A stretch of 40,752 bases of DNA, taken from a virus. Lineage: Duplodnaviria > Caudoviricetes. Positions 408-40,752 of the stretch are shown here, one piece after another. Position numbers and translations under genes: made by a program. Every line of letters starts with the position of its first letter. Position 1 is the first letter of the stretch. Location: positions 1 through 40,752 of the IMG/VR virus record IMGVR_UViG_3300020138_000011; one strand, 5' to 3'. Below the pieces are notes generated by a model. That model saw only the letters and a list, made by a program, of their open reading frames with translations, did not search any database and was not told the DNA's origin.

Positions 408-3050
408 TCATCCCACAAGCTTGTTGATTGTACTAGTTGAAACACCAAGAGCATCAGCAATCTCTGCTTGAGTGTAGCCTGCTGCAAGCATAGTCATAGC
501 TCTAGCTTCGATAGCCTTAGACAAGGTTCTAGACGGTCTTGGTGTGGCGAGCTTCTTGACTTCATCGAGATCCGCGTGCTTTAGAATCTCTTTCAACTTA
601 CTAGCTGTAATAGCGCCTGCTTGAATGGCTTCCCATTGCCTTGGTGTGAACTTGATCTGTTGCTTCTTAGCACCTGTAATCAAGCGTGCACGCTCTAGTT
701 CTTGCCCTCTAATCTTCTTAATGAAGTCGCCAGTAACGTCAGGATTAGACAATCTTCTAGCCTTAACAGCAGCGTTTGCTAGAATCTGAGCGCGTCGTTC
801 TAGAGGGGCGTTTCTCTGGGCTATGGCTAGGGCACTATTAAGTGCGGCCACCTCTTCCGCATACACCCCCCTAGCTGATGGTGAATAGGGGGTGGGCTTA
901 GTTTCTAGTGCCGTCTTACGGGCCTGGTTAGCCAAGGCCTTCAACTTGTTTGCGTGGTCAGCGTAAGCCATCTCCATAGAAGTGCCAGGCTTAGACATCA
1001 AGGATCTGGCATCCTCTACAACCGCCATCTTAGTGGTTTTAGTCTGGCGAGTTACTACATCACCCTTCTTGTTAACGTAGGTCCTACCAGTAGGCTCAAA
1101 CATGAGTCGACCAGTCTTAGGGTCTACAGGGCCGCCCTTTGCTGCTGTTCTGGGCTTTCTTTCGTCAACCCAAGTGGGGGAGCTAGCTCTAGAGATGAGT
1201 GTAGCAGAACCCGCATTGGCACGCTCTTGATATTTGACCTTCAATTCCTTGATGCCGTTATCTAGAGCAGACTGCTTATAATCGAGATGGTGTTTTTCGG
1301 CATCGATAACGACCATCGAATGCTTAACAGCCCTAGCGATCTCCGATTCGTGAGCCCCCTTGATTGTCATATCTGTAATCAGATTAGATACATCGCCCAT
1401 GAGCTGCTGTTTCCTAGTATCAGAAAGCTTTGGCGCATCCTCGGGGAGCTTATAGCGAAGAGGGTCGAAATCCTTCAATGCTCCCAGAGGGGACGAACTC
1501 TTAATTGGCTTTCCACCTGGATTGGGGATCACCAAAACTGAGTCTCCATCAAAGTCGGCCCCAGAAAGCTGCTTTGCAACTTGAGGGTTTATACCGATAG
1601 CATCTTTTGCCTGACCGATAATAGCCCTTGATTCTCGATGCCTGTTATTCACAGTCAATTGAGGAATCTCAAAGATGCCTCCGTGAGGATGTCTAATCAG
1701 AACAACCGTTTCACCAGAACGAAAGTTGGGCGCGTAAACCTCATTATCCTTCAGACTAGGAATAGGTAGAATTACATGGTTCCTAGTTCTCGGAAGACTA
1801 GCTGCCTTCAGATGAACTGCAGAGGAATCTGCCGAGTCAGCAAAAGCTTCCATAAGCCTCTGCTTAACAACAGGGTTGGTCAGCGCATTGATTTCATCAA
1901 ACTCGGCGCGCTTAATGTCGAAAGACAACCCCAACTGACGCTTAGCCAATTCCGTACCCTGCTTAGAAAGCATCTGGCTAGAGAACGTGCGAGACCACTC
2001 GTGCCAGTCACCTTCTTCCCGAAGGATGTTAAGTGCTCCCGATTGACGACGGATATTCGACGAAAACGGGTTCTCTGGATCCGACCCCATAAGCTTCATG
2101 GCGTCCTTCGGGTTGCCCGTAGAACTCTTGTTTGTATTGAATACAATGTCTACACCATCGGGAAGATCCGTCTTGTAGATGGCCATACCCTTCAGGTAGT
2201 GGGTTCCATCAATCGCAATTCGAACCTGAGCGTAGCGAGAAGAACCAAGCGAAAGGTCCTTGACACCCGGGCGAATGTAGATAACACCGTCTCGGTCGGC
2301 ACCGCCCTCTTCTGCATATGCGACCTTGACTCGCTTACCACTAACATTCTTTGGTGGCCCAATAACCTCGTAAGTTCGACCACGGTCATCGCTGGTCTCA
2401 CCGATAAGGTTAATCTTTTCTGGGTTTGTAACGATGTCCTTAAAGGTTTCCCTGCCAGTCTTTCCTGGAGGAGCTAGCACCTTGACCTCGGTCATGTGTC
2501 CGGTTCCAAGCTGCTCAATCTTAACCTTATGAACCTCGTATCCCTCTTCCTTCAGCATAGCCAACGCGGTATTAAGCTTTGTCGAGCTGATTCCGAGATC
2601 GTGCTCTACCCCGGCGCCGACGTCAATGTAGCCCTTTTCGTCGACGTTCTTCTTCAGGATGTTGGCGGTGGTCTTAAGTACTGCCTGATTCTCCTGAATT
2701 GAGGTGTTCAAAAGTGCACGAACCGAAGATTCGTTAATACCCATTCGCTCACCAATGGCGACGTTAGACAGCCCCTTTTCCTTTAGGCGGACCGCCAGAG
2801 CCACGTCTCCAGACCGCTTCTCATGCCTTGAAATTGCCGTGGCTGCTCGAAGCTGAGTTGTGGTCCAAGGACGACCGTCTTCATCGAGAATGCTCTTGGC
2901 GATTTCTGTGTCCGTAAGACCGTTATTTCGAAGCTCGTCTACGTAACCGAGGAAGTTCATACCCCTCTGATAGGGGTTACTGCCACTGCCCCAAGGATAC
3001 CGCCCAGAACGTCGAAGGATGCCATAGTGCATGATCTCTTCGTCGGTCAC
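408..3050 (-). CDS. putative single-subunit two-barrel (DPBB) RNA polymerase with N- and C-terminal HTH-like segments
   Basis: Motifs in order: DGVIYI..QVR..KG, VLIRHP, LSGADFDGD (DFDGD at 1542-1556) and HSMVVIDAEKH, as in YonO/cellular RdRP-type polymerases; HTH-like segments LSNVAIGERMGINESSVR and YTQAEIADALGVSTSTI. Confidence 0.75.
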   Translation of the reverse strand: MTDEEIMHYGILRRSGRYPWGSGSNPYQRGMNFLGYVDELRNNGLTDTEIAKSILDEDGRPWTTTQLRAATAISRHEKRSGDVALAVRLKEKGLSNVAIGERMGINESSVRALLNTSIQENQAVLKTTANILKKNVDEKGYIDVGAGVEHDLGISSTKLNTALAMLKEEGYEVHKVKIEQLGTGHMTEVKVLAPPGKTGRETFKDIVTNPEKINLIGETSDDRGRTYEVIGPPKNVSGKRVKVAYAEEGGADRDGVIYIRPGVKDLSLGSSRYAQVRIAIDGTHYLKGMAIYKTDLPDGVDIVFNTNKSSTGNPKDAMKLMGSDPENPFSSNIRRQSGALNILREEGDWHEWSRTFSSQMLSKQGTELAKRQLGLSFDIKRAEFDEINALTNPVVKQRLMEAFADSADSSAVHLKAASLPRTRNHVILPIPSLKDNEVYAPNFRSGETVVLIRHPHGGIFEIPQLTVNNRHRESRAIIGQAKDAIGINPQVAKQLSGADFDGDSVLVIPNPGGKPIKSSSPLGALKDFDPLRYKLPEDAPKLSDTRKQQLMGDVSNLITDMTIKGAHESEIARAVKHSMVVIDAEKHHLDYKQSALDNGIKELKVKYQERANAGSATLISRASSPTWVDERKPRTAAKGGPVDPKTGRLMFEPTGRTYVNKKGDVVTRQTKTTKMAVVEDARSLMSKPGTSMEMAYADHANKLKALANQARKTALETKPTPYSPSARGVYAEEVAALNSALAIAQRNAPLERRAQILANAAVKARRLSNPDVTGDFIKKIRGQELERARLITGAKKQQIKFTPRQWEAIQAGAITASKLKEILKHADLDEVKKLATPRPSRTLSKAIEARAMTMLAAGYTQAEIADALGVSTSTINKLVG

Positions 3051-5955: not shown

Positions 5956-5977
5956 AATAGGTCTCCTTTCGAAAAAA

Positions 5978-6303: not shown

Positions 6304-6330
6304 TCACTATATGCACTGTTTTGTGTGCGA
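6304..6330 (-). promoter_or_regulatory. 27-bp promoter motif
   Basis: TCGCA-cac-AAAACA-gtgca-TATAGTGA. Confidence 0.75.
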
Positions 6331-6667
6331 GAGGGGGCGCCATAATGGTCGTTTAAGCCTACGCATTCCCAGTCATGAGCTGGTCGTGCCGAGGCCCCAG
6401 TGTGATAGCTATCTGCTTACGGACTTATCTAATATAAGACTTAAATCTCTACACCCACCACAATAGATGTTTTTCTTATCGCCGCAGGGACTCATGAATG
6501 CTATTTCACATTCCTGTATACGGAAACGGATAAGTGAGTTTAAGGCAACCGGTGGGGCGCATTTTAAGCATGTCGTTTAATATCAAGGTGCGTTTTTTTC
6601 AACTAACCGGATACCCCATACCACGCTCTGGGCTTAATGCCTATTTATACTCGCCCAGTCGAGTTTG

Positions 6668-7066: not shown

Positions 7067-7495
7067 TCACGCACCCCAGACCCGATCCTTATGGTCCAGA
7101 GCAAGAATGTGCGGGATGGTGTTTCCAATCTCCTTGAAAACGTCCGACATAGTGAAGTAGTGCACACCATTATCGAACGAGAACGCTTCTGGATCTCTGA
7201 CATTTTGCCAGAGGCGGAAGTCATTCTTTCCGATCTCGGTCCACTCGTCTGGATCGCTCGACAAAGGCGACAGAAGCTCGCCTTTGAGAAGCGTGTGAAT
7301 GGCTTCAACCATGGAATGTCGGGAAGAAAGATCGTCGTCCAAGCCAAGATTGACGAATGCTTGGAAGACCCTGAGAATCGAATCTATGGGTAGGCCACCC
7401 TCAATAGTCAACTCACGCTTAGCGTGAGCGATCAAAGGGTGATCGTAGTCGATAAGTCCACTGTCAGGACTAGGGGAAGTTTCCTCGATGTGCAT
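7067..7495 (-). CDS. hypothetical phage protein
   Basis: GAAAGGAGAC RBS; LSPL..DPDEW..WQNVR pattern; start moved to MHIEET. Confidence 0.75.
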   Translation of the reverse strand: MHIEETSPSPDSGLIDYDHPLIAHAKRELTIEGGLPIDSILRVFQAFVNLGLDDDLSSRHSMVEAIHTLLKGELLSPLSSDPDEWTEIGKNDFRLWQNVRDPEAFSFDNGVHYFTMSDVFKEIGNTIPHILALDHKDRVWGA

Positions 7496-7627
7496 GATAA
7501 TGTCTCCTTTCAAAAATGTTTAAGACGGGAGGGCGGATGTGGGGCAACACTCTACCACCGCTAACATCTCTTACCTAGTGTTAGACCCTCCCCCGCACAA
7601 GGTTTGGCGAGAACCTTTATTGGAAGA

Positions 7628-8287: not shown

Positions 8288-8569
8288 CTATGCGAAGACG
8301 TAGATGGACTCGAAGAGGCCTGCGCCGTAGACCATAAATACTCCGTTTGGGACCTCAACGACATAGTCGCCAATAGACACGGCGACCTTTGTGGGGGGCA
8401 CCATATTTTCGGCTTGAAGGACGAGGTACTCCTCTCCGTGTCGCCTGACAAATTCGTGCATTGTAGCGCCGACGAAGTTAATCACCGCGTCGACATTCTT
8501 ACCGTCGTATCGAATAGCCCGAACCTTCTCGGGCTTCCGGACGAACGTCTGAACAGTTGCATTACCCAT
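8288..8569 (-). CDS. hypothetical phage protein
   Basis: GAAAGGAGACC RBS before MGNATV; RKP..VRAIRYDG..GDYVV pattern. Confidence 0.75.
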   Translation of the reverse strand: MGNATVQTFVRKPEKVRAIRYDGKNVDAVINFVGATMHEFVRRHGEEYLVLQAENMVPPTKVAVSIGDYVVEVPNGVFMVYGAGLFESIYVFA

Positions 8570-8582
8570 GCTAGGTCTCCTT

Positions 8583-8831
8583 TCAGACATAAAGATTATT
8601 GGTTCCGGGCTTCTCATCAAGCAAGTTGTCGTGCTTTTCTAAGAGACGGATCCACTTTGTGGCCTTAACCGTGTTTGGTTTCGGCAGAGCAAGCTCCTCA
8701 TATCCTAGAAAAACAAGACTCTCCGAAGCAAGCCAATCTTGAACTTCGTTGTATAACGGGTACATCTCAGCCCGAATATCGGCCCGCTTCTTTCGCCAAG
8801 CCTTACGCGCCTTGCTGTTGTTCCTAGCCAT
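8583..8831 (-). CDS. hypothetical basic protein
   Basis: GAAAGGAGACC RBS, 82 aa. Confidence 0.7.
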   Translation of the reverse strand: MARNNSKARKAWRKKRADIRAEMYPLYNEVQDWLASESLVFLGYEELALPKPNTVKATKWIRLLEKHDNLLDEKPGTNNLYV

Positions 8832-8855
8832 TATGGGTCTCCTTTCAAAGATTCC

Positions 8856-12627: not shown

Positions 12628-13170
12628 TTAGAACAAATAGTTTTCGAACAAATAGATAGACATCTGATCCCAAATCTCAATGTGACGCTGATCGCCCTGT
12701 CTAGGGTCATTAATTGGAAATATACCACCTCGACCGTCAGAGTCATACGTCCGGAAGATAAGACTCTCCAAAATATCGTCGATCTCAGAGTCCGAATACC
12801 GGTTGTACTTATGGTCGGTAAAGTGTGATAGAGACAGGTTCTTCAAAAACGTCCAGAACCACTCCACGCTTGAAATTTCCGTTTGAAATTCAGCTCGCCT
12901 AGACAGGGCGATCAGCATCTCGAGAACACTACATCCGAGGCCCAACCAAGAGTCTAAAGCCTCGTCGGACTCCACCTGGTTGAGGTACTCTAGGCGAAGA
13001 GCACGCCCGTCCTCAACTCGATTGTCGTCATTTGGAACTAGCCAGATAAACTCTTTAGAGTAGAGTTGGCGAAAAAGCTTCCAGTACGACTTGGTGGGGT
13101 TCCTGTTCCTTACCGCAGCGACTTGACTATAAAGCCACTCCAGATAGCGGTCGTCAATCGTCCCGCTCAT
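12628..13170 (-). CDS. hypothetical protein
   Basis: 180-aa ORF in the operon. Confidence 0.75.
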   Translation of the reverse strand: MSGTIDDRYLEWLYSQVAAVRNRNPTKSYWKLFRQLYSKEFIWLVPNDDNRVEDGRALRLEYLNQVESDEALDSWLGLGCSVLEMLIALSRRAEFQTEISSVEWFWTFLKNLSLSHFTDHKYNRYSDSEIDDILESLIFRTYDSDGRGGIFPINDPRQGDQRHIEIWDQMSIYLFENYLF

Positions 13171-13894
13171 CTCGTCGCTTCCGCGTCCTTACAACTTCGT
13201 CCTCCGGGTCCTCCCGAATACCGAGAATCTTCTCAGTGTAGGAGCCTTCATCCCTCAGAACCTCGAGGTCCAGCTCGAGAGCTTCATTCCGAATGAAGAG
13301 AACGTCCTTGTTGTCCGACAGCCCCTTATCGAACAGGTTCAGGTTCTTGAGACCAACAGTGTCATCGATGTTTGGGATGATGGCGTCTCGATCGTCGGCA
13401 AGAGTGTTATCCGCCTCGTAGTAGGTGACCTGTGCCTGCTCGTAGTTTCGCTCCTGGAGCGTCCACTCACCCTCACTGATCACATACGGCATACCCTCTC
13501 CTCGAGGAGAAAGACGCTCCTCCTTTGACGGGGCATCATCTCCTCTCTCAGGCTCGTGAAGATCGTCCTGATCGAAGAGGTTGTAGTGCTCCTCCTTGAT
13601 GATCTGTTCTACGACTTCGGTGCCGACACCGTCTTCAGGCTCAGAAGTCGTCTCCTCCTCGACGACATCATCGCCAACCAACTTCTTCGCAGCGGAGGAG
13701 ACGGTCGCATATGGACCGGTCTTGTTCAGACGCTCGTAGAAGTCCTTGGTCTCGTTGATGGCCTCATCGACTCGATCCATTGTTTCGTTTCGAACTCGGT
13801 TGCTGGCCAAAATATAACCAGCAGCGAATCCAGCAGCAGCCAACCCCACGGTGAGGGCCGTGAAACCGCCAGCATTCATGGTAACTGTTCGCAT
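13154..13894 (-). CDS. acidic protein with N-terminal transmembrane anchor
   Basis: Hydrophobic N-terminus; GAAGGAGACC RBS. Confidence 0.75.
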   Translation of the reverse strand: MRTVTMNAGGFTALTVGLAAAGFAAGYILASNRVRNETMDRVDEAINETKDFYERLNKTGPYATVSSAAKKLVGDDVVEEETTSEPEDGVGTEVVEQIIKEEHYNLFDQDDLHEPERGDDAPSKEERLSPRGEGMPYVISEGEWTLQERNYEQAQVTYYEADNTLADDRDAIIPNIDDTVGLKNLNLFDKGLSDNKDVLFIRNEALELDLEVLRDEGSYTEKILGIREDPEDEVVRTRKRRDERDD

Positions 13895-13895
13895 C

Positions 13896-14045
13896 TCAGG
13901 TCTCCTTCTGTTCCTTCTTCGAGTGGTATCGAGAGAGTCCCTGCCGAAAAGGCCTATGAGTAAGGTGCGGCTTTACTCGATATGGCTTCTTCTTGGGGAG
14001 CTTCTTGCTTGGGAAAGCGTCCCTTGGCGTAGGGATCTCAGTCAC
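13896..14045 (-). CDS. small basic protein (49 aa)
   Basis: GTG start with AAGGAG RBS; MTEIPTPRDAFPSKKLPKKKPYRVKPHLTHRPF... Confidence 0.6.
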   Translation of the reverse strand: MTEIPTPRDAFPSKKLPKKKPYRVKPHLTHRPFRQGLSRYHSKKEQKET

Positions 14046-15461: not shown

Positions 15462-15653
15462 TTACGCGGCGTACACATCCTGGTTGCTAGGAAGCCCCAT
15501 AAAATGAAGAGAAGCAACATAAGGAAACAACGTGTACAGAATGTTAAGTAGGTACGCACCACAAATGCATCGCGTGCTAGTTGTGACCGACCCAGCAGTA
15601 TGTATTTTTCCGCATTGGCACTTGAAAAATGTTACATTTACAGTCTTACGCAT
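15462..15653 (-). CDS. small zinc-ribbon-like protein
   Basis: CQCG and CICG pairs; AAGGAGAC RBS. Confidence 0.6.
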   Translation of the reverse strand: MRKTVNVTFFKCQCGKIHTAGSVTTSTRCICGAYLLNILYTLFPYVASLHFMGLPSNQDVYAA

Positions 15654-15677
15654 CTTGTCTCCTTATGTTGTGTTTTG

Positions 15678-16366: not shown

Positions 16367-16633
16367 TCAGAGCTTGTCGAGTGGGTGAGGTTGGACTTTG
16401 TAGCCCGTAGATTCGATCACGTTGTCGACGGTCTTGTTGACGTGTCGGCCAACTCGTCTCTGAACTAGATCGATGAAGAACCACATCCCGAGCGCGACCG
16501 AGATCCTCTTGATGAGGCTCATGGACGTGCTCGGGGGGAGGATCCTAGCGAAGGTCAGGGACAAGATGATGCCGATACCGAAACAAGCGGCGAGGCGCAG
16601 AACGAACTTGAGCAGGGCGATGATGTGTCGCAT
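16367..16633 (-). CDS. small membrane protein with two hydrophobic segments
   Basis: Hydrophobic 88-aa ORF; RBS; flanked by promoter motif and terminator. Confidence 0.8.
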   Translation of the reverse strand: MRHIIALLKFVLRLAACFGIGIILSLTFARILPPSTSMSLIKRISVALGMWFFIDLVQRRVGRHVNKTVDNVIESTGYKVQPHPLDKL

Positions 16634-16660
16634 CTCAGGTCTCCTTTCGAGAGTCTGTTG

Positions 16661-16687
16661 TCACTATAAGCGATGTTTTAGATGCGA
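16661..16687 (-). promoter_or_regulatory. 27-bp promoter motif
   Basis: TCGCA-tct-AAAACA-tcgct-TATAGTGA. Confidence 0.75.
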
Positions 16688-16740
16688 TAAATCCTACGAC
16701 CCAAAGCACGTTTTAACAGTGTGCTTGATGGTAGGATTTA
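16688..16740 (-). terminator. hairpin downstream of 16747..17007
   Basis: Stems taaatcctac/gtaggattta and aagcac/gtgctt; weak U-tract. Confidence 0.5.
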
Positions 16741-16746
16741 GCTAAA

Positions 16747-17007
16747 TCACCGCTTAACTACGTCGATGAAGAACTCGCCCGAGAGGGCATCCTCATTAGT
16801 CATGTAGCACTTCATGAACTCGCCAACGGAAACGATACTCGGCGATCCGGCGGGGTCGTACGGGTGGAGGTAGATGTCACCGACACTTTCCTTGTCGATC
16901 TTGACAACCGACAGGATAGCAATCTTCTTTCGATTGCTGGGCTTGATGACGATTGCCATGTGGGTTGGAATTATATGTCCCATGAGTAAAGCCTTTCGCT
17001 TCGACAT
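16747..17007 (-). CDS. hypothetical protein, paralog of 6013..6276
   Basis: Shares AI.I...N, ILS, PY and V.EF.K.Y pattern. Confidence 0.65.
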   Translation of the reverse strand: MSKRKALLMGHIIPTHMAIVIKPSNRKKIAILSVVKIDKESVGDIYLHPYDPAGSPSIVSVGEFMKCYMTNEDALSGEFFIDVVKR

Positions 17008-17136
17008 TTTTCAAAAGTTGCTAGGTGATGTGGGGGCACCTTTTATGAGGGGTGAGCGGTTGTTTAAGATCGAGCCTCTCCGCGATAAGTATATCTGATA
17101 CTCTTCGCTGCTGGGCAGATCCCCCCTTAACGTCGT

Positions 17137-17673
17137 TTAGCCCTCGGACTGCCGAGCCTTCCACTCCTCGAACGCCATACGGTCAGCGTCCTCAGAAGCT
17201 GAGACCATCTCGGTCTTCTTTGGGAGGTGATCCTTAGGTTCCAGGCGTGCTACAGGCTTCTCGTCGACGTTCTCGCCCTCATTCGAGCTCGCGATTGCCT
17301 GGAATCGAGAAGCAATATCGTTGGGGACTAGGCCCCGAACGAACTCTGCGCCGCTTGACGGGTCCTCGAGGAAACCGAGAACGATCTCATTAAACGCGAG
17401 GCTGTTCTTGAATCGCTCACGGATCGCGTCGTTCTTACGGAAGCCACGACCATCTTCCTCGCGCTCGCCGTAAGCCGTAAGAACGATGTTGCTCATGGCT
17501 GCGAACGCTTCACGGGGGTTCTCGGACTTCACGAGGGTGTCGATGTACTCGGCCCAGCCATTCTCGTGGGAGAACTGGAGCTCCACAAGCTCATATTCGC
17601 TGAGGTGGAAGTACAGATCCTCCGTGACATGACGACCGTACAGATCCTTGTAGGTTACAGACTTCTTAATCAT
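17137..17673 (-). CDS. hypothetical phage protein
   Basis: AGGAG RBS; KKSVTY.D..G..TEDLYF pattern. Confidence 0.8.
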   Translation of the reverse strand: MIKKSVTYKDLYGRHVTEDLYFHLSEYELVELQFSHENGWAEYIDTLVKSENPREAFAAMSNIVLTAYGEREEDGRGFRKNDAIRERFKNSLAFNEIVLGFLEDPSSGAEFVRGLVPNDIASRFQAIASSNEGENVDEKPVARLEPKDHLPKKTEMVSASEDADRMAFEEWKARQSEG

Positions 17674-17708
17674 TTGTTACTCCTAAATATGACTGGATAA
17701 AAGAAAAA

Positions 17709-17751
17709 AGTCTAAGCCTATGCTAGGTGTGAGTTAGCATAGGCTTAGACT
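17709..17751 (-). terminator. intrinsic terminator
   Basis: Perfect 17-bp stem followed by a U-tract. Confidence 0.8.
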
Positions 17752-17792
17752 ATGGACATAGCCAGTACGAGGTTAGACGACGACTAGTGAGG

Positions 17793-17984
17793 TCAGTCGT
17801 CCTCGGGAGAGTCCTCTTCGGTGAACGTGAGGTTCCCCCGCGACGTGTTGTAGCGGTCGAGTGTGGCACCCACAGCAATGATGCTGAGGATGCCAGCGCC
17901 GGTGTACGCCAGGACGCGGCGGGACTTCAGGAACTCAAAGAACTTCTTCTTGGGGGCGACGACCTGGTCGGGTGAGTCGGTCAT
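17793..17984 (-). CDS. small single-TM membrane protein
   Basis: VLAYTGAGILSIIAVGATL segment; cassette context. Confidence 0.8.
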   Translation of the reverse strand: MTDSPDQVVAPKKKFFEFLKSRRVLAYTGAGILSIIAVGATLDRYNTSRGNLTFTEEDSPEDD

Positions 17985-18012
17985 GTCGGTTTCCTTTCAG
18001 TAGTGACGGATG

Positions 18013-18039
18013 TCATTATAGAACGTGTTTTTAATGCGA
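18013..18039 (-). promoter_or_regulatory. 27-bp promoter motif
   Basis: TCGCA-tta-AAAACA-cgttc-TATAATGA. Confidence 0.75.
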
Positions 18040-18051
18040 TCATAAAAGAAA

Positions 18052-18072
18052 GAGACCCGTGTTAGGGGTCTC
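18052..18072 (-). terminator. cassette terminator
   Basis: GAGACCCCTAACACGGGTCTC followed by TTTCTTTT. Confidence 0.8.
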
Positions 18073-18081
18073 AGTCTTTGA

Positions 18082-18252
18082 CTACTTCTTGGTAACGGAT
18101 GTGAAGAGCAGGTGTACTCTCGGCGTGAAGCCCGCTGCTCGGATCACGTTGGAGATCTTCCAGTTCATGTGCACCACGACGGTGGTGATGTAGAAGAGGA
18201 TCTTGTAGATGATCCAGAGGGGGAACAGGATCGGGAGCAAGAGATAACGCAT
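18082..18252 (-). CDS. small membrane protein (56 aa)
   Basis: Hand translation MRYLLLPILFPLWIIYKILFYITTVVVHMNWKISNVIRAAGFTPRVHLLFTSVTKK; GAAAGGA RBS. Confidence 0.8.
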   Translation of the reverse strand: MRYLLLPILFPLWIIYKILFYITTVVVHMNWKISNVIRAAGFTPRVHLLFTSVTKK

Positions 18253-18280
18253 ACTAGTTTCCTTTCAAAGAAGTGGTATG

Positions 18281-18307
18281 TCATTATAAGCCCAGTTTTA
18301 AGTGCGA
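18281..18307 (-). promoter_or_regulatory. 27-bp promoter motif
   Basis: TCGCA-ctt-AAAACT-gggct-TATAATGA. Confidence 0.75.
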
Positions 18308-18308
18308 C

Positions 18309-19079
18309 CTATCCGAACTTGTAGTAATCCCGAACGGGGGTCATTCGATATCCCAGAGCAAGACAAGGCTTATTATCCTCGGAAAGGACTGAGGAGAATT
18401 GGAGATCCATTTGATGATCGACAGTCCACCCAAGCTCTTCCCCCATACCAGTGGGTGCAAGACCGATCAGATTGTAGAACTCATTCTGAGAAGCATACAT
18501 ATCACGAAGAATCTTCGCGTTGATGTCGTTCTGAGCCTTCCGGAGAGTCTCAATGTCGCTACGGAAGTATCGGCCAGTGATGGTCTCGTAGCAGAGAACG
18601 TCGCCATTCCCAGTGATGTAGACTTCCTTATTCGAAACGGGGTCCTCGGCTACCTTATTCTGAGCAACCGAATCTCGAATCTTCTCTTCCTTCTTTGAGC
18701 CGATTTGCTCGACCACAGCGTCCTTATAATCTGAGAACGCCTTTTCCGAAAGAGAATATGCGCTGGCGAGAAGAGCTGCTCGGCGCGACCCTACACGATT
18801 AGCACAAACGATGCACGTAATTGTAAGAGCGCCTGTTACGATTGCTGGAGCGTATACAGGCCCATACACTTTTACATACCGCTTCGCCAGTTCCATCTTT
18901 GTCTGTGGCGACCCGTTGGCGGCCTTGTCCTCTTCACCGCGCCTAAGTGCCTCGGGCGTCGAACGAACAGCCAAGATTGTAGTCCCGATCGTTCCAACAA
19001 CAGCAATACCTGTAAGAATTGCCGGGGCGTTATCCGACACGGTCTTTACAGCCTTCTTAAAGACATCTTGAATCACCAT
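18309..19079 (-). CDS. DUF6353-like membrane-associated protein
   Basis: APAILTGIAVVG, VYAPAI, LASAY and GRYF motifs; paralog of 14220..15098. Confidence 0.7.
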   Translation of the reverse strand: MVIQDVFKKAVKTVSDNAPAILTGIAVVGTIGTTILAVRSTPEALRRGEEDKAANGSPQTKMELAKRYVKVYGPVYAPAIVTGALTITCIVCANRVGSRRAALLASAYSLSEKAFSDYKDAVVEQIGSKKEEKIRDSVAQNKVAEDPVSNKEVYITGNGDVLCYETITGRYFRSDIETLRKAQNDINAKILRDMYASQNEFYNLIGLAPTGMGEELGWTVDHQMDLQFSSVLSEDNKPCLALGYRMTPVRDYYKFG

Positions 19080-19157
19080 AGCCTCCTTTCTAAGCCAAAA
19101 AATGAGAAGATGTGTAGCATAAATACTGCACTAGATATCTAAATATATCTCTTCTTC

Positions 19158-19184
19158 TCATTATAAGATGTGTTTTTTATGCGA
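19158..19184 (-). promoter_or_regulatory. 27-bp promoter motif, followed directly by a hairpin and U-tract
   Basis: TCGCA-taa-AAAACA-catct-TATAATGA. Confidence 0.75.
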
Positions 19185-19196
19185 GGGAAAAAGAAA

Positions 19197-19217
19197 GAAG
19201 CCCTTGTGAGGGGCTTC
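19197..19217 (-). terminator. cassette terminator
   Basis: GAAGCCCCTCACAAGGGCTTC followed by TTTCTTTTT. Confidence 0.8.
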
Positions 19218-19226
19218 AATCTTTGA

Positions 19227-19394
19227 CTAGTTGTACCTAGTGTAGGTCAGATGCCACTGGCCTGTGGTGAACTTGAGCGCAGTCAGAGGGTACTCCACGA
19301 TTCGGAGCGCGTATCGGAGAATCAGCATGAGCATGACAATGACGCGGTACAGAATGACGATGGGGTAAACCAGGATGGCCAAGATCAAACGCAT
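19227..19394 (-). CDS. small membrane protein (55 aa)
   Basis: Hand translation MRLILAILVYPIVILYRVIVMLMLILRYALRIVEYPLTALKFTTGQWHLTYTRYN. Confidence 0.8.
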   Translation of the reverse strand: MRLILAILVYPIVILYRVIVMLMLILRYALRIVEYPLTALKFTTGQWHLTYTRYN

Positions 19395-19428
19395 GGCGTT
19401 TGGTCCTTTCTTATAGTGTACGGGGGTG

Positions 19429-19455
19429 TCACTATAAGCCTTGTTTTGGCTGCGA
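19429..19455 (-). promoter_or_regulatory. 27-bp promoter motif
   Basis: TCGCA-gcc-AAAACA-aggct-TATAGTGA. Confidence 0.75.
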
Positions 19456-19463
19456 AAAAGAAA

Positions 19464-19484
19464 GAGACCCGTGTTAGGGGTCTC
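19464..19484 (-). terminator. cassette terminator
   Basis: GAGACCCCTAACACGGGTCTC followed by a U-tract. Confidence 0.8.
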
Positions 19485-19496
19485 AATCTTTAGAGA

Positions 19497-19610
19497 TCAG
19501 CGATTAGAGTTTCGGATCTCACGAACAAGGACCCAGATGAGCCAGAGTCCTCCGGTGAACAGCGTGAGCGTTGCATCGAGGACGAAGTTCCAAAAGGTGT
19601 ACTTCTTCAT
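19497..19610 (-). CDS. small membrane protein (37 aa)
   Basis: Hand translation MKKYTFWNFVLDATLTLFTGGLWLIWVLVREIRNSNR; GAAAGGA RBS. Confidence 0.8.
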   Translation of the reverse strand: MKKYTFWNFVLDATLTLFTGGLWLIWVLVREIRNSNR

Positions 19611-19641
19611 GACGATTTTCCTTTCAAATCGATGACGGATG

Positions 19642-19668
19642 TCATTATAAGCCCTGTTTTCCATGCGA
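19642..19668 (-). promoter_or_regulatory. 27-bp promoter motif
   Basis: TCGCA-tgg-AAAACA-gggct-TATAATGA. Confidence 0.75.
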
Positions 19669-19676
19669 AAAAGAAA

Positions 19677-19697
19677 GAGACCCGTGTTAGGAGTCTC
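19677..19697 (-). terminator. cassette terminator
   Basis: GAGACTCCTAACACGGGTCTC followed by a U-tract. Confidence 0.8.
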
Positions 19698-19709
19698 TTT
19701 CTTTGCGTC

Positions 19710-19955
19710 CTAGAAATGGTGTTCTTTCACATAAACGATATGCGAGTTGTCGTAAAGAACGATCGGGGCGAAGGTAAAAGCGAGAGGGTCATCATCCAGT
19801 GTGGACACGCAAAGCGCGGTCTTGTTGTAGGGACTCGGGAGAGCAAGCTCCCTGGAGTGTACGAAGACACCGGGCAGTTCGGGATTCAATTGGATGACGT
19901 CCCCTCGCAGAACTTCACCGATCGGCTTGAAAGCCTCAACGGGCACAACGAACAT
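19710..19955 (-). CDS. hypothetical cassette protein (81 aa)
   Basis: Start at MFVVPV behind GAAAGGA, downstream of the promoter motif. Confidence 0.75.
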   Translation of the reverse strand: MFVVPVEAFKPIGEVLRGDVIQLNPELPGVFVHSRELALPSPYNKTALCVSTLDDDPLAFTFAPIVLYDNSHIVYVKEHHF

Positions 19956-19986
19956 AGAAAATGTCCTTTCTAAAAGCGATTGGATG

Positions 19987-20013
19987 TCATTATAAGCCCT
20001 GTTTTCCATGCGA
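19987..20013 (-). promoter_or_regulatory. 27-bp promoter motif
   Basis: Identical to 19642-19668. Confidence 0.75.
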
Positions 20014-20021
20014 AAAAGAAA

Positions 20022-20042
20022 GAGACCCGTGTTGGGGGTCTC
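20022..20042 (-). terminator. cassette terminator
   Basis: GAGACCCCCAACACGGGTCTC followed by a U-tract. Confidence 0.8.
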
Positions 20043-20051
20043 AGTCTTTGA

Positions 20052-20222
20052 CTACTTCTTGTTGAGGTCGTTCACGAGAGCCTTGACCGGGGACTCATAG
20101 CCGAGAAAGCTAATGCATTCCTCTAGCAGACCCAGTACCAACACGATGACGATGACGGGTATGAACAGGATCAGGCTGAGCAGGATGAGCGGAGCGGCGA
20201 TGAGCAACTGGTAGTAGCGCAT
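20052..20222 (-). CDS. small membrane protein (56 aa)
   Basis: Hand translation MRYYQLLIAAPLILLSLILFIPVIVIVLVLGLLEECISFLGYESPVKALVNDLNKK. Confidence 0.8.
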   Translation of the reverse strand: MRYYQLLIAAPLILLSLILFIPVIVIVLVLGLLEECISFLGYESPVKALVNDLNKK

Positions 20223-20255
20223 GGCGAACTAGCCTTTCTAAAAAGGGAATGGTTG

Positions 20256-20282
20256 TCACTATAAGCCCTGTTTTCCATGCGA
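20256..20282 (-). promoter_or_regulatory. 27-bp promoter motif
   Basis: TCGCA-tgg-AAAACA-gggct-TATAGTGA. Confidence 0.75.
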
Positions 20283-20341
20283 ACTCCCCGCCAAAAATCC
20301 CACCCGGGAAAATTTTAGGATGCGATGTTGGAGGTGCGAGA

Positions 20342-20388
20342 AAAAGAGTAAGGCCCGTACGGATATGATGTACGGGCCTTACTCTTTT
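20342..20388 (-). terminator. intrinsic terminator, possibly bidirectional
   Basis: Perfect 19-bp inverted repeat aaaagagtaaggcccgtac/gtacgggccttactctttt. Confidence 0.85.
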
Positions 20389-20413
20389 GAGCAGGTCTAT
20401 AGAAGTAAGCTGG

Positions 20414-20701
20414 TCACGGTCGAGCCTTGACAATGAACGACAACGCCTTGGACGCGATCACATGGCTTCGTTCGAAGCTCAGGATGGTCACGATTCCGAG
20501 GAGGTTGGCCGAGATCGTCAGCACTGTGTCCATGCTAACTCGGTCATTCGTGTTGTACGAACGAGCCTTGTATAGCTGGTCCAGAGCCGACAAGATCTTG
20601 GTGTGCTCGTCAGAACCGACGACTTCATTCTTAAGCTCGTCGAGAGTCTTAGAGATAGCGTCGTCGAGTTGACGGTCTGTCTTGGTCTTAAACAGCGACA
20701 T
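20414..20701 (-). CDS. membrane protein with C-terminal hydrophobic segment
   Basis: GAAAGGAGACC RBS; VLTISANLLGIVTILSF. Confidence 0.8.
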   Translation of the reverse strand: MSLFKTKTDRQLDDAISKTLDELKNEVVGSDEHTKILSALDQLYKARSYNTNDRVSMDTVLTISANLLGIVTILSFERSHVIASKALSFIVKARP

Positions 20702-20723
20702 AGGTCTCCTTTCATAGAGGATG

Positions 20724-20750
20724 TCACTATAAGCCGTGTTACCGGTGCGA
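20724..20750 (-). promoter_or_regulatory. 27-bp promoter motif overlapping the holin stop codon
   Basis: TCGCA-ccg-GTAACA-cggct-TATAGTGA. Confidence 0.7.
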
Positions 20751-21095
20751 CACCTTAACTGTGAGCTCGTTCTTAGAATTCAGAATCGACAGAGGAGTAT
20801 CCACCTCAAGCGAATACACATCCGTGTCATCGTTGGAAGTATCGATAACCAGCGTCCCGTCGAAACGATCTTGGCTATTGCTGTACGACTTAACACTGAT
20901 TCGAAGAACCGTGCCAAGGAATACCGCAATCACAGCCAGGGTGCCCGCGACCTGCTCGACGTTGGGGAACCCCCAGATCTGTGCTAGACCGACATACAGC
21001 GCACTAACTGCTGGAATGACGATCTGAACCAGGAACTTAAGGCGATCGTATGTGAGATTAGAGAGCAACGTATTACTCTTCCCCGCGTTCGTCAT
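20739..21095 (-). CDS. holin (Dp-1-like)
   Basis: LSN.TYD.LK..VQIVIPA..ALY..LAQIWG pattern, two TM segments. Confidence 0.8.
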   Translation of the reverse strand: MTNAGKSNTLLSNLTYDRLKFLVQIVIPAVSALYVGLAQIWGFPNVEQVAGTLAVIAVFLGTVLRISVKSYSNSQDRFDGTLVIDTSNDDTDVYSLEVDTPLSILNSKNELTVKVSHR

Positions 21096-31245: not shown

Positions 31246-31788
31246 TTAGCCTGAGGTATTCAATTGAGCTCGACGTTGAGCATTAAGTTGCGCATACGAT
31301 TGAAGGACATCTCGGCGAGGAACCTTCTTCTTAGGAGCGTTCTTCTCGTTTACGACCTTGATAAGCGTAAACAGACGGCCCAAATGCCAAGTTTCACACT
31401 CTGTTGGGATTTGTAGAGTGAGCATCCAGTAATAGATAATCTCGGCAGTGTGCACTTCTCTGGACGTCTTTCGATTTGTAAGCTCATTAAACCATGTGGC
31501 TGACATCTTTGCATTGATGTACTCATTTATGTCTTTAATGTTCTCTTCCGAAAGCCTGTACAGATCTTCTATAGGAATTTCAGGAGAAACGACCATGCAA
31601 TGGATGTACGAAAGCGTCTCTTCAGAAGTCTTTTTGTCTGGGCCTAAGAACGGCTTCTCCCAAATCGACTCCCATTTTGAAAGGGCGACCAGGGAGTGCT
31701 CAAGTTCAAGCTCGATCGAACCTATTTCGACAAACTCTTGGGCTTTGTCGTCGAAGAACTCTTGTCCTGGAAGTTTGATCTTAAGCAC
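31246..31788 (-). CDS. putative tail assembly chaperone
   Basis: Follows the major tail gene; LEHSL..SKWES and WHL.RL motifs. Confidence 0.6.
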   Translation of the reverse strand: MLKIKLPGQEFFDDKAQEFVEIGSIELELEHSLVALSKWESIWEKPFLGPDKKTSEETLSYIHCMVVSPEIPIEDLYRLSEENIKDINEYINAKMSATWFNELTNRKTSREVHTAEIIYYWMLTLQIPTECETWHLGRLFTLIKVVNEKNAPKKKVPRRDVLQSYAQLNAQRRAQLNTSG

Positions 31789-31806
31789 CCCCTGGCCTCC
31801 TTTCTA

Positions 31807-35326: not shown

Positions 35327-36551
35327 TCCTTTCTACCGGATCCGGTGGAGAAGGCTCTGGTTCCTCAACCGGGGCTGGAAGGTTCTTATTTCGGAGTTCG
35401 TCGGCTTGTGGGTCATTGGATGGCTTGAAACCAATGATTCCTCTAATCTCATTGGAGGAGAGGATCTCGTTTCGGGTAAACTTGTCAGCCATCTCAGACA
35501 ACGTCTCCATTGGGACCAACTTGAATGGGTCTCGGAAGAACCTAACAGACTGCTTTTGAGAACGGGCTGTCTTTGTCAGGAACGTTCTCGACATCTCTTC
35601 GGTAATAGCTGTAAGAATCGGCTTAATTGTCCGATTGTAGTAGTTAAGCATGGTTGCTTCGTCAGCCTTACCAAGGAAGACATCTTCCGTGATCCCCAAT
35701 TGACCATAAACGAGCGCCCAGAGATACTCGATCTGTCGCTGAAGCTTGTTTTCTACAGGTCGATTAAGTTGTGTGATTCTTTCTGTAGCATCGGTGTATG
35801 CGATTCCAAGCTCAGACGTCTTAAGCTGCATTTCGATAGCTTTTTGACGACTCTCAGCCTGCTTTGCCCGGGCTTCAGACTTAATCACATAAGGAAGCTG
35901 AATGATTAGATCCAACTTGTTAGATCCCGATGCTTCATCAATTGCGTCCAGAATCTGAAGTTTTCGATTCAATCTCTGAAGCATCGAATTTGGTTCGTTC
36001 ATGACCTTATACAGAGGGTTTTCGACAATGGCAGTAAATCGCTTATCGACCCATACGTCTTCATGCCTCTGAAATTCGTCACGCCATAGACGAACCTCTA
36101 CCTTTGTTGCAGACCATTGGAGAATCTTACCAACTCGCATGGTCTTAATGTCGAAACTTCCAGATGAGTTCGGATTGATAGAGGTATCCACTGGAACAAT
36201 AGCGATAACGCCTTCATCAAGAAGTGAAAATATAACATTCTGCCTAAAGTACGTTGCTGCCTGATCGATGTTCGCCTCTGTGTTTAGACAGTAATTCAAC
36301 CCGCTATCAATCGTTTCCAAAAATCGATCATTATCGTCCAAGCGAACATGCTTGATCTCGATCTCGGATGCATCAATCGCGATTCTAGTAATGATACTTG
36401 AAAGAATCGACTTGTCGGAGCCAAACGACCTATATAGGACGTCGGGTCTACGACCATAACTAGTGCTATGATCGAAATTTGGATAGGATTCAATTTCATC
36501 CTTGTTTCGGAAGGCATTCCATGCGTGCCTAAGCTGCGTGCTGAGGGACAT
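35304..36551 (-). CDS. portal protein
   Basis: Between terminase and protease; YYNRTIKP and NEIRGIIG motifs. Confidence 0.88.
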   Translation of the reverse strand: MSLSTQLRHAWNAFRNKDEIESYPNFDHSTSYGRRPDVLYRSFGSDKSILSSIITRIAIDASEIEIKHVRLDDNDRFLETIDSGLNYCLNTEANIDQAATYFRQNVIFSLLDEGVIAIVPVDTSINPNSSGSFDIKTMRVGKILQWSATKVEVRLWRDEFQRHEDVWVDKRFTAIVENPLYKVMNEPNSMLQRLNRKLQILDAIDEASGSNKLDLIIQLPYVIKSEARAKQAESRQKAIEMQLKTSELGIAYTDATERITQLNRPVENKLQRQIEYLWALVYGQLGITEDVFLGKADEATMLNYYNRTIKPILTAITEEMSRTFLTKTARSQKQSVRFFRDPFKLVPMETLSEMADKFTRNEILSSNEIRGIIGFKPSNDPQADELRNKNLPAPVEEPEPSPPDPVERNDNQNGT

Positions 36552-38732: not shown

Positions 38733-39072
38733 CCGTCTTAATCCCTTCTCGATAGACGTTCAAGCGCCATTCCAATTCCTGAACTTGATTGGCCATGGCG
38801 TCCTTGGCGTATGAAGTTTCCGGGGGGTCGAAAAGAAGACGAACTCGTAGATAGACGTATGTCTTAACTGAGTTAAGATTCGTATCGCCGCGGAGGAATT
38901 CGTCCCACTCAGCCTCTTCGTCTTCAATGGCGAATCCCTCTTCGGGCCCCACCCCCAATTGCTGAAGGGTATTAAATACCGAATTAATGTGCATAATTAC
39001 ATCTACGTCAAAAGCAGTATAATCATCAGCAATACTCAACACCTTCTTAACTGAGTTAAGAATGCTATCCAT
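38716..39072 (-). CDS. putative head-tail connector protein
   Basis: SIL.SVKK, FD.D..HIN, LLFDPP and ELEWR motifs. Confidence 0.6.
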   Translation of the reverse strand: MDSILNSVKKVLSIADDYTAFDVDVIMHINSVFNTLQQLGVGPEEGFAIEDEEAEWDEFLRGDTNLNSVKTYVYLRVRLLFDPPETSYAKDAMANQVQELEWRLNVYREGIKTDDHQR

Positions 39073-39783: not shown

Positions 39784-39794
39784 GATGTCTCCTT

Positions 39795-40205
39795 TCACCA
39801 GAGTTTAGTATCTCCGGGTCGTCGTTCTATCATTACCGGAACTATGTTCAATCTATTCCCGTAATGCAATGCGTTATGCGTGTCATGTGTTGTTGTTATC
39901 AGATACTCTGGATCTAGAATGTATTCTCTATTGTGAAGAACGTCGTCTTTCGTTATTGGGTTCATATGGTGGATGATAATCTTTTCAAATATAGGATAAT
40001 CCTCACACCCTAAATCCAACCCGCTGTCTCGAGCGATGACGTGGTTTCTAACATGACGCCATTCTTGAGAAGTATAAAAGCGTTGATTCAAATATCGCTC
40101 AGACCCAAAGGTCTCGATCCCAACCGCGCCATTTAACTGAAGATAATCGAATCTATCTTCGAATGTTTGAAGACGTCTAAATTCAGAATATGTTCTAATC
40201 CTCAT
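39795..40205 (-). CDS. HNH endonuclease (packaging-associated)
   Basis: FY.S.EW..VR..VIARD, IHHMNP and THNALH motifs. Confidence 0.8.
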   Translation of the reverse strand: MRIRTYSEFRRLQTFEDRFDYLQLNGAVGIETFGSERYLNQRFYTSQEWRHVRNHVIARDSGLDLGCEDYPIFEKIIIHHMNPITKDDVLHNREYILDPEYLITTTHDTHNALHYGNRLNIVPVMIERRPGDTKLW

Positions 40206-40536
40206 AGTCGTCTTCCTCTTCGTGACCGGAGTACGACCGCATAGCCCTGATCGCGTTTTCGTAAAGCTCTTCGGTTCTCTGACTAGACAAGAGCTGGTCC
40301 TGCTTAGCTTTTAGGAGTTCCGTTTCCAACGCAATCTTCTGTTGCTCCAACTGTTCTCTAGTTGTAGCCAATTTTAAAAAATGTGTAATGACTTGTGAGG
40401 ACGCAGTTCCGTTGGCGAGTTGCTTTTCCGCTAGATCGACAGCGAGGGCAACCATTTGCTTTTCACGGCCCTCCAGCGTTGTTGCGGGCGGTCGTTTCGG
40501 CCTGCGAGCCTCGGCAGACTTCCTCGTTGCCGCCAT
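40195..40536 (-). CDS. hypothetical protein, possible terminase small subunit
   Basis: First gene at the genome end; helical/coiled-coil; AGGAGG RBS. Confidence 0.55.
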   Translation of the reverse strand: MAATRKSAEARRPKRPPATTLEGREKQMVALAVDLAEKQLANGTASSQVITHFLKLATTREQLEQQKIALETELLKAKQDQLLSSQRTEELYENAIRAMRSYSGHEEEDDYED

Positions 40537-40573: not shown

Positions 40574-40704
40574 ACAGGGAGGAGACTCTCTGAAGGAGCT
40601 ACAATAGTTTTGGGCTGGTTAGACCCACTTTGAAAGGAGACCGGGAGGTTTATTCCCTATTATTTGTTTACTATTGTAGCTCCATCAGAGAGTCTCCTCC
40701 CTGT
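40574..40704 (-). ncRNA. candidate structured non-coding RNA (long hairpin with anti-RBS loop)
   Basis: 35-bp inverted repeat with 1 mismatch around a 61-nt loop; strand is inferred. Confidence 0.5.
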
Positions 40705-40752
40705 TTTAACCCGGTTGCCCCCATCAAATATCCCCCCGGGGAATTTTTGAAG

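What the first reader, a model, noticed from the sequence alone, without database searches (positions are those of the whole stretch)
40574..40704. Terminal long hairpin whose loop is antisense to a shared extended RBS: candidate global translational regulator RNA
Seen: 35-bp arms (34/35 match) enclose two mini-hairpins that flank ctttgaaaggagacc (40628-40642), with no start codon after it. On the minus strand, which carries all genes, this reads GGUCUCCUUUCAAAG. That is complementary to the RBS of the genes starting at 8831 (15 nt), 7495 (13), 8569 (12), 20701 (12), 5955, 16633 and 39783 (11 each), and more weakly 13894, 15653 and 16310. Most structural genes use other RBS contexts (AGGAGGTG, GGAGGGGG). 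Inference: a late sRNA that silences early/middle genes and times lysin expression, or an SD-like decoy if made from the plus strand.
Basis: partly seen in the sequence, partly recalled or inferred. Interest (0 to 1): 0.8.

Follow-up and report, generated by a model that had tools for sequence, protein, structure and literature searches.

The report
Phage RNA mirroring early-gene ribosome sites
Beside the packaging end of this phage genome lies a conserved 131-base hairpin whose predicted open loop is the exact complement of the ribosome-landing sequence of several non-structural genes and changes in step with that sequence across related phages, so it is likely a small RNA that turns those genes down together, although no transcript has been seen.

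Summary
Observation confirmed. The window is an essentially complete phage of the 1706/Oengus/Arthrobacter AM-AU supercluster. The hairpin (40574-40704, minus strand) belongs to an RNA family absent from Rfam: a 30-35-bp covarying stem closing linker, hairpin, anti-RBS strand and second hairpin. It is present in 22 of 36 genomes or contigs examined, plus 23 further IMG/VR loci, and missing from one clade. G-U bias puts it on the gene strand. The loop co-varies with each phage's own extended RBS (permutation p about 5e-6, 10 lineages). Matches of 11 nt or more fall at 43 of 551 non-structural starts against 1 of 288 structural ones. Most typical relatives add an anti-AUG loop whose matching CUGAUG starts are also enriched; this window lacks that loop. 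Best reading: a trans-acting antisense repressor of early-gene translation, likely cut from a longer transcript. Lysin timing is not conserved, decoy and DNA readings are disfavoured, and nothing shows expression. It works like C4 antisense RNA but is not a C4 member. This scan noted what is probably the same family (e1-8699238) and the same principle on other DNA; I found nothing in print.

The parts
40574..40704 (-). Whole predicted RNA element: long stem closing a junction with two hairpins and a single-stranded anti-RBS segment
   Evidence: model built without the window scores it 52.8 bits on -, 38.5 on +, next site 19.3
40670..40704 (-). Outer stem P1, 5' arm (35 nt); U-U mismatch at 40684/40594, 14 bp from the junction, at the family's conserved GA-x-GG/CC-y-UC position
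40574..40608 (-). Outer stem P1, 3' arm
40658..40669 (-). A-rich unpaired linker (A/C-rich in the family)
40643..40657 (-). Hairpin P2; in most typical relatives its loop carries UCAUC(AG), complementary to (CU)GAUGA at start codons; here the CAU is absent
40628..40642 (-). Anti-RBS strand GGUCUCCUUUCAAAG, mostly predicted unpaired (0.3-1.0 per base)
40611..40627 (-). Hairpin P3 (variable in the family; C(UUCG)G loop in 4 of 36 members on this strand, 0 on the other)
8836..8850 (-). Predicted target: RBS of the 82-aa gene 8583-8831 (15 nt, -25.1 kcal/mol), directly after the primase-polymerase gene
7502..7514 (-). Predicted target: RBS of gene 7067-7495 (13 nt), which matches Pfam Tad3, a Thoeris inhibitor family (E 4e-15)
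20703..20714 (-). Predicted target: RBS of gene 20414-20701 (phrog_5818, 12 nt), first gene after the lysis genes, directly behind a TATAGT box; the most conserved target
8574..8585 (-). Predicted target: RBS of gene 8288-8569 (12 nt)
16638..16648 (-). Predicted target: RBS of gene 16367-16633 (11 nt), behind an early-type promoter repeat
18260..18270 (-).
5960..5970 (-). Predicted target: RBS of gene 5755-5955 (11 nt)
39787..39797 (-). RBS of the M23 peptidase (lysin) gene, start 39783 (11 nt); the match is not conserved in relatives
13899..13907 (-). Weaker predicted target: RBS of gene 13154-13894 (9 nt exact)
31794..31804 (-). Structural-region exception: RBS of gene 31246-31788 pairs 11 nt with one G-U; it also lies in a cis stem (31677-31806)
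40705..40752 (-). 48 nt between the cos-like left end and the element; by comparison with relatives only the short cohesive end is missing from the contig
40195..40536 (-). First gene of the structural arm (phrog_4259), 37 nt downstream; its RBS pairs poorly with the loop (-7.6 kcal/mol)
408..3050 (-). Supercluster signature RNA-polymerase-like gene; lies upstream of the element once the genome is circular

Best explanation
The hairpin is a conserved structured element on the gene strand whose anti-RBS strand is complementary to the extended ribosome-binding sites of the phage's own non-structural genes, and it likely acts as a trans-acting antisense RNA that blocks ribosome loading on those mRNAs after the early phase. 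Shown: the structure, its conservation by compensatory changes, the strand bias, the complementarity, its co-variation with each phage's RBS, and the confinement of good matches to non-structural genes. Inferred steps: (1) it is transcribed as part of a longer transcript running into the structural arm; in DizzyRudy, G002 and G009 it starts 6-8 nt after a stop codon, leaving no room for its own promoter. (2) The 30-35-bp stem with a fixed central mismatch is cut by a double-strand RNase (RNase III-like; geometry recalled), which would free a stable RNA of about 90 nt closed by about 14 bp. (3) The junction strand pairs 11-17 nt over the SD and its flanks, more stably than the 16S tail (here -20 to -25 against about -13 kcal/mol for the top six targets); in most typical relatives the P2 loop also pairs with the AUG. 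(4) Structural genes mostly escape because their RBSs follow the 16S tail (AGGAGGUG, AGAAAGGAGG) at the positions where the loop differs.
For: Family: 24 of 25 consensus pairs with double changes; 91.6% of cells paired against 38-51% in slid controls; leave-out model recognises the window on the minus strand. Strand: G-T 55 vs A-C 26 in 28 elements, p 0.002; 34 vs 16 in 17 newly found ones, p 0.015; one column holds C-G, U-G and U-A but never C-A. Loop-RBS covariation: window GGUCUCCUUUCAAAG with CUUUGAAAGGAGACC; Qui 12 starts with 14-15 nt; BitterVaud1 AACUCCUUACAA with UUGUAAGGAGUU; P092 GUCCUCCUUAAGAC with GUCUUAAGGAGGAC; G010 up to 17 nt; G012 15 nt. Own loop ranks first in 6 of 10 lineages, permutation p about 5e-6. 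Targets: 43 of 551 vs 1 of 288, p 2e-7. The phrog_5818 start carries CTCTTGAAAGGAG in 8 of 8 other actinophages that have the typical loop and a called orthologue, and in 0 of 7 that lack the element. Second site: uncoupled TG|ATG behind AGGAG in 27 of 210 starts in 7 CAU-loop phages vs 1 of 124 in 5 element-bearing phages without CAU (window 0 of 21) and 6 of 120 in 8 without the element; this accounts for G002, which failed the first test.
Against: No transcript, promoter or RNA run. The candidate late motif TCAAAATGG has no copy upstream of the element. CC and DJ phages keep a repeated extended RBS (CCTAYGAAAGGA) with no antisense copy found at up to 1 mismatch, so an extended RBS can persist without this RNA. 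The core CUCCUUUC is also the ordinary 16S anti-SD, so part of each match is expected. Own-loop rank is only 2-9 of 16 in 12 of 17 genomes, many of which share nearly the same loop; Zeina copy 1, G014, G007 and G001 show few or no good targets. Mean duplex energy of early vs late starts does not differ across the window (p 0.28). In gut members G010, G011 and G012, 3 of 20 matches lie in or near the structural half. The window's own stem gives no strand information. Genomes are related and Qui supplies 12 of the 43 early matches, so the p-values overstate independence.
Confidence: 0.68

Rival explanations
1. The RNA pairs with the same sites, but the outcome is not a ribosome block: it triggers decay or premature termination of early transcripts, or serves immunity against superinfecting relatives, as C4 does, rather than timing.
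For: All covariation evidence fits equally. At the phrog_5818 gene the paired stretch begins about at the predicted transcript 5' end, just behind TATAAT. C4 serves immunity and lysogeny (PMC5320573 passages).
Against: Pairing is centred on the SD and, in relatives, the AUG, which is where a translational block acts. 11-17 bp is short for RNase III cleavage (recalled).
Confidence: 0.15
2. Its main job is broad host shut-off: an anti-SD sponge that binds any strong GAAAGGAG site, with phage early genes as bystanders.
For: The invariant core CUCCUUUC equals the recalled 16S tail, and 8 nt would pair with many host mRNAs.
Against: The flanks track each phage's own RBS and depart from the 16S tail on both sides. 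No host genome was tested.
Confidence: 0.07
3. The functional molecule is made from the opposite strand: an SD(+AUG) decoy or a small ORF, ended by the hairpin and U-rich tail at 40643-40669.
For: A terminator-like site on + at 40643-40657; each arm holds a TACAAT; 13 of 17 typical members have SD plus ATG on that strand; Mudcat gene 2 is annotated from this ATG.
Against: G-U bias and UUCG loops favour the gene strand. The reverse ORFs run 5-65 aa with no shared sequence, and the window has no such ATG. A transcript ending at P2 could not form the conserved outer stem.
Confidence: 0.05
4. It is a DNA element (cruciform or protein site) for packaging or replication at cos.
For: It lies 48 nt from the cos-like end here and near it in many members.
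Against: It sits about 2 kb inside, between genes, in DizzyRudy and JoyLin, and straight after a stop codon in G002. A clade with the same cos and terminase lacks it. Arm sequences are not conserved, and a DNA role does not explain loop-RBS covariation.
Confidence: 0.03

Closest known systems
C4 antisense RNA of phages P1 and P7 (PMC5320573, passages read)
   Same: Phage-encoded, three-helix RNA processed from a longer transcript. Unpaired segments pair with the phage's own mRNA and occlude ribosome-binding sites, with two recognition sites whose specificity varies between phages.
   Different: No Rfam match. C4 is about 77 nt, cut by RNase P, and acts in immunity and lysogeny on a specific target operon (the target scope is recalled). 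Here a 30-35-bp closing stem is predicted, recognition is by a junction strand plus an anti-AUG loop, and up to 12 dispersed genes per genome carry the site.
Start-associated sequences (SAS) of cluster K mycobacteriophages (PMC3203893, PMC11373665, PMC12699233, passages read)
   Same: [quoted passage not shown] The authors left open whether an RNA or a protein binds it.
   Different: Different motif and unrelated phages. In Anaya the single reverse copy is intergenic and largely unpaired in a predicted multiloop, but has no long closing stem. No partner RNA is described in the passages read.
Bacterial sRNAs with C/U-rich anti-SD loops (6C RNA, cuckoo RNAs, RNAIII, RsaE; recalled, not read)
   Same: Expose anti-SD sequence in unpaired regions to repress several mRNAs.
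   Different: Chromosomal, with short generic motifs in hairpin loops. No Rfam match here, and no full-length element in 100 of the 120 cellular-genome loci that carry the loop pattern.
1706 / FP_oengus / actinophage supercluster (bioRxiv 10.1101/842583, passages read)
   Same: Host lineage of the element: same terminase, gene order and DxDGD RNA-polymerase-like gene.
   Different: A term search of that preprint's main text found no mention of hairpins, promoters, non-coding RNA or ribosome sites.

Membership tests
C4 antisense RNA | Match to the Rfam C4 models | tested here: not met
   No C4 hit at E up to 10 for the window; no Rfam family at gathering score in 12 relatives' loci
C4 antisense RNA | Unpaired segments complementary to RBS regions of the phage's own mRNAs | tested here: met
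   (prediction and covariation only)
C4 antisense RNA | About 77 nt, target-binding a' and b' loops, short closing stem | tested here: not met
   131 nt with a 35-bp stem; the main site is a junction strand
C4 antisense RNA | Matured by RNase P | not testable with these tools
   No RNA data
Cluster K SAS system | 13-bp GGGATAGGAGCCC at gene starts | tested here: not met
   1 match with 2 mismatches, 0.81 expected
Cluster K SAS system | Repeated extended RBS confined to non-structural genes, plus one opposite-strand copy away from any start | tested here: met
   7 gene-strand copies at starts, 6 of them non-structural, and 1 opposite copy in the loop
Anti-RBS long-stem RNA family of this supercluster (defined here) | 30-35-bp stem with mismatch 14-16 bp from the junction, linker, P2, YCUCCUUUCAAR, P3, on the gene strand before the first structural-arm gene | tested here: met
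   Model built without the window: 52.8 bits, minus strand; architecture table
Anti-RBS long-stem RNA family of this supercluster (defined here) | CAU in the P2 loop 6-10 nt before the anti-SD (13 of 17 typical members found through protein anchors) | tested here: not met
   Window P2 loop is AUAAACC, and 0 of 21 starts have TG|ATG; Tokki, Gordon and Zeina also lack it
Anti-RBS long-stem RNA family of this supercluster (defined here) | Expressed and processed as a discrete RNA | not testable with these tools
   No RNA holder listed
1706/Oengus/actinophage supercluster | Signature RNA-polymerase-like gene and conserved head, tail and replication synteny | tested here: met

The most novel reading that the evidence does not exclude
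A phage lineage spanning Actinomycetota and Bacillota hosts carries an RNA that copies the two RNA contacts of the initiating ribosome, the 16S anti-SD tail and the initiator anticodon CAU on a G-C-rich hairpin. It is cut out of the late transcript by RNase III and switches off a whole early regulon, including an anti-Thoeris gene here. Extended phage RBS repeats such as the cluster K SAS would then be the operator sites of such RNA repressors, a general RNA-based early-to-late switch.
Probability: 0.35. Interest if true: 0.88.

Novelty: new variant of a known kind. Interest (0 to 1): 0.74.

Why it matters
Few phage-encoded trans-acting RNAs have known targets (own knowledge), and how lytic phages shut early genes off is mostly explained by proteins. 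This family names RNA, targets and pairing rule from comparative data. It occurs in cultured phages of harmless hosts (Mudcat, Gordon, Sporto and Qui on Arthrobacter; P092 on Lactococcus lactis), so it can be tested directly. It also offers a concrete answer to the question left open for start-associated sequences since 2011, namely whether an RNA binds extended phage RBS repeats. One practical point: the reverse 'gene 2' annotated in many AM phages probably reflects this RNA's mirror SD and AUG.

Tried and rejected
Rfam: only miRNA-precursor look-alikes far below their thresholds; nothing for 12 relatives' loci. Blastn of the left end against phages matched the genes, not the hairpin, in the 20 of 73 records listed, so members were found through protein anchors and a loop pattern. 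A whole-genome folding scan timed out and was replaced by an inverted-repeat prefilter. Strand by minimum-energy folds was weak: 147 vs 122 G-U pairs, gene strand more stable in 22 of 34. Sequencing runs: no RNA holder listed, 2 DNA runs, one possibly the source; run X2 covers the region only in pieces. Promoter scan found no sigma-70-like site upstream of the element on the gene strand, and no shared upstream motif other than the cos repeats. Heliusvirales paper: 0 occurrences of oengus, Arthrobacter or RNA polymerase in the main text, so that label was dropped. The function of the conserved target protein (20414-20701) stayed unknown after PHROG, Pfam and Atlas. A conserved reverse-strand peptide was rejected. 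Absence in BI, CC and DJ was checked with the model: no hit in whole genomes with default filters, best 19 bits with filters off on the first 20 kb of 5 genomes. The model also misses divergent Bacillota and gut members (P092, Oengus, G011, G012, G014, BitterVaud1), which are assigned by position and architecture only, so a very divergent form in BI, CC or DJ is not excluded. G015 is truncated at the relevant end. Literature searches that did not show this element: (listings only, except the papers named). No supplements were read; large catalogues of candidate viral structured RNAs (recalled) could list the motif there.

Full report
Setting. All called genes lie on the minus strand. The terminase is about 78-79% identical to those of Streptomyces BI and Arthrobacter AU phages. 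PHROG matches give the order: small gene, HNH, M23 peptidase, terminase, portal, protease-capsid, tail, holin, an array of small genes, primase-polymerase, helicase, RNA-polymerase-like gene. This is the supercluster that joins actinophages with Lactococcus 1706-like phages and FP_oengus (10.1101/842583, passages). The two ends match the cos flanks of relatives, so the window is essentially the whole genome. The hairpin lies 48 nt from the left end and 37 nt before the first gene.

Observation. The inverted repeat, inner hairpins and all listed RBS matches are as described. AAAGGAGAC occurs 7 times on the gene strand, always at a start, and once on the other strand, in the loop; 0.54 matches are expected. 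On the gene strand the 15-nt segment is mostly unpaired. Rfam has no family for it.

A conserved family. Loci fetched through the two neighbouring proteins showed the same element with unrelated arm sequences. Of 36 genomes or long contigs including the window, 22 carry a long stem with a CUCCUU core in its loop, 1 has a C-rich variant, and 13 showed none; one of those 13 (G015) is cut at that end. On a terminase tree of 33 rows, the element-less BI, CC and DJ phages with G001 and G008 form one clade (93/93, below the tool's starred bar). Carriers occur among both Actinomycetota- and Bacillota-infecting members, which suggests an old element and one main loss. In 16 aligned elements 24 of 25 stem pairs show double changes, and 91.6% of cells pair against 38-51% when partners are slid. 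A loop pattern scan of IMG/VR gave 93 loci; 30 hold a full-length or 5'-cut match to the model at E under 0.001, of which 7 were already in hand. The same pattern in cellular genomes gave no full-length element in the 100 of 120 loci tested. A model built without the window finds it at 52.8 bits on the minus strand. The shared anatomy is a 30-35-bp stem with a mismatch 14-16 bp from the junction, an A/C-rich linker, hairpin P2, YCUCCUUUCAAG, and a variable hairpin P3. Divergent gut and Lactococcus members are assigned by position and architecture, not by model score.

Strand. Where arms are not perfectly complementary, G-T outnumbers A-C on the gene strand: 55 to 26 in 28 elements (6 near-duplicates or elements without the core left out) and 34 to 16 in 17 of the pattern-found members. 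One column pair is C-G, U-G or U-A in all 16 rows. The window's own stem cannot tell the strand. Reverse-strand ORFs from the mirrored SD and ATG are 5-65 aa and unrelated.

Loop and RBS change together. Each lineage's loop is complementary to its own repeated RBS. In many carriers (for example the window, Qui, Mudcat, P092, G010, G011) the commonest RBS 10-mer has its gene-strand reverse complement in the loop. Scoring pairing beyond the shared AAGGA core, the own loop ranks first in 6 of 10 lineages, with permutation p about 5e-6. G002 fails this test. Among all 17 genomes the own loop ranks first in only 5, because many actinophage loops are nearly the same. Matches of 11 nt or more occur at 43 of 551 starts after the lysis genes and 1 of 288 before them, in the 10 genomes where the boundary gene was found. 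Starts were called by a simple script that missed the window's 5955 gene. The boundary gene itself (phrog_5818; 20414-20701) is the most constant target: CTCTTGAAAGGAG in 8 of 8 typical actinophage carriers and 0 of 7 non-carriers. One window target matches Tad3. Against a recalled 16S tail, the top six window targets pair 8-12 kcal/mol better with the loop, whereas several structural starts pair better with 16S.

A second site. In 13 of 17 typical members P2 shows CAU 6-10 nt before the anti-SD, the spacing of SD and start codon. Phages with that loop have uncoupled TG|ATG behind AGGAG at 27 of 210 starts. The rate is 1 of 124 in carriers without CAU, 6 of 120 in non-carriers and 5 of 306 in gut and Bacillota members. 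G002 has 8 of 33, which explains its failure above; Sporto has 0 of 22 despite its CAU. The window lacks CAU and instead extends pairing to GACC after the SD.

Mechanism. The simplest account is pairing in trans over the SD, and the AUG in relatives, blocking initiation. The element is not tied to the next gene: that gene's RBS pairs poorly, and inserted genes separate them in Qui, G005 and G002. In 3 of 16 genomes checked it begins 6-8 nt after a stop codon, and here no U-tract follows it, so it is likely made inside a longer transcript. Release by RNase III at the central mismatch is an inference from geometry. Timing after the early phase is inferred from position only; TCAAAATGG, suggested by note e1-9751146 as a late signal, occurs 6 times on the gene strand in the structural arm but not upstream of the element.

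Against. There is no expression evidence. CC and DJ phages keep their own extended RBS without an antisense copy, so such repeats can persist for other reasons, for instance as leaders of early promoter cassettes. The lysin match is unique to this genome. One structural-region RBS pairs well (31788). Related genomes are not independent.

Comparison and novelty. It works like C4 antisense RNA (PMC5320573, passages) but fails the family tests. The target side resembles cluster K SAS, where a single opposite copy was noted and the binding partner left open (PMC3203893, passages; still described as ill-defined in PMC11373665). In Anaya that copy is largely unpaired in a predicted multiloop, which is a lead only. 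Searches listed under Tried and rejected showed no description of this family. Earlier notes of this scan report the same principle in other phages and probably the same family on other DNA (e1-8699238); these are unchecked and are not counted as support.

Verdict. A real, conserved RNA family with comparative evidence for multi-target antisense control of phage translation. New variant of a known kind; interest 0.74.

Noticed in passing
window 31677-31806 (-); also Tokki 13571-13696 and 3504-3678, and Gordon, Sporto, DizzyRudy, L012, L014, G008: The RBS and start of the gene between the two major-tail genes (phrog_4338), and in relatives also of the terminase large subunit, pair with coding sequence 110-150 nt downstream in a long predicted stem: conserved cis sequestration of these starts.
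   Followed up: no
window 39103, 37471, 35319, 31680, 27852, 22883 (-): TCAAAATGG occurs 6 times, all on the gene strand in the structural arm and 0 times on the other; the same bias for TCAAAATRG holds in all 36 genomes or contigs checked.
   Followed up: partly
window 6289-6331 and 16646-20751: Ten copies of an early-type promoter repeat (TCGCA...TATAAT/TATAGT on the gene strand), several joined to terminator hairpins, in front of small genes.
   Followed up: no
window 7067-7495 (-): Gene matching Tad3, a type I Thoeris inhibitor family (Pfam PF25185, E 4e-15).
   Followed up: no
Mossy 38844-39013 and Tanis 36001-36171 (records W04, W12): DJ Gordonia phages, which lack the anti-RBS element, share a different long-stem structured element in mid-genome with a conserved inner sequence.
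   Followed up: no
Sporto 46-153, Qui 447-572, Tokki 142-252, L013 258-372, L042 206-342: A second long-stem element without the anti-SD core lies at the left end of several members; Zeina has two anti-SD copies in tandem (42-170, 179-319) with different loops.
   Followed up: no
L018, L020, L022, L024 (before gene 1); L001 5337-5476: Variants whose loop reads CCCCUC or CCCCCC instead of CUCCUU; no matching targets were found in the partial contigs held.
   Followed up: partly
window about 15515-15670 (-): A 27-bp predicted stem pairs the RBS of gene 15462-15653 with sequence about 150 nt downstream.
   Followed up: no
L375 31871-31883 (Mycobacterium phage Anaya, between genes 96 and 97): The single reverse SAS copy lies largely unpaired in a predicted multiloop, a candidate analogous RNA.
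   Followed up: partly
L053 371-568 (Mudcat and other AM phages): The annotated reverse-strand gene 2 starts at the mirrored ATG of this element and may be an annotation artefact; it is absent from several near-identical records.
   Followed up: partly
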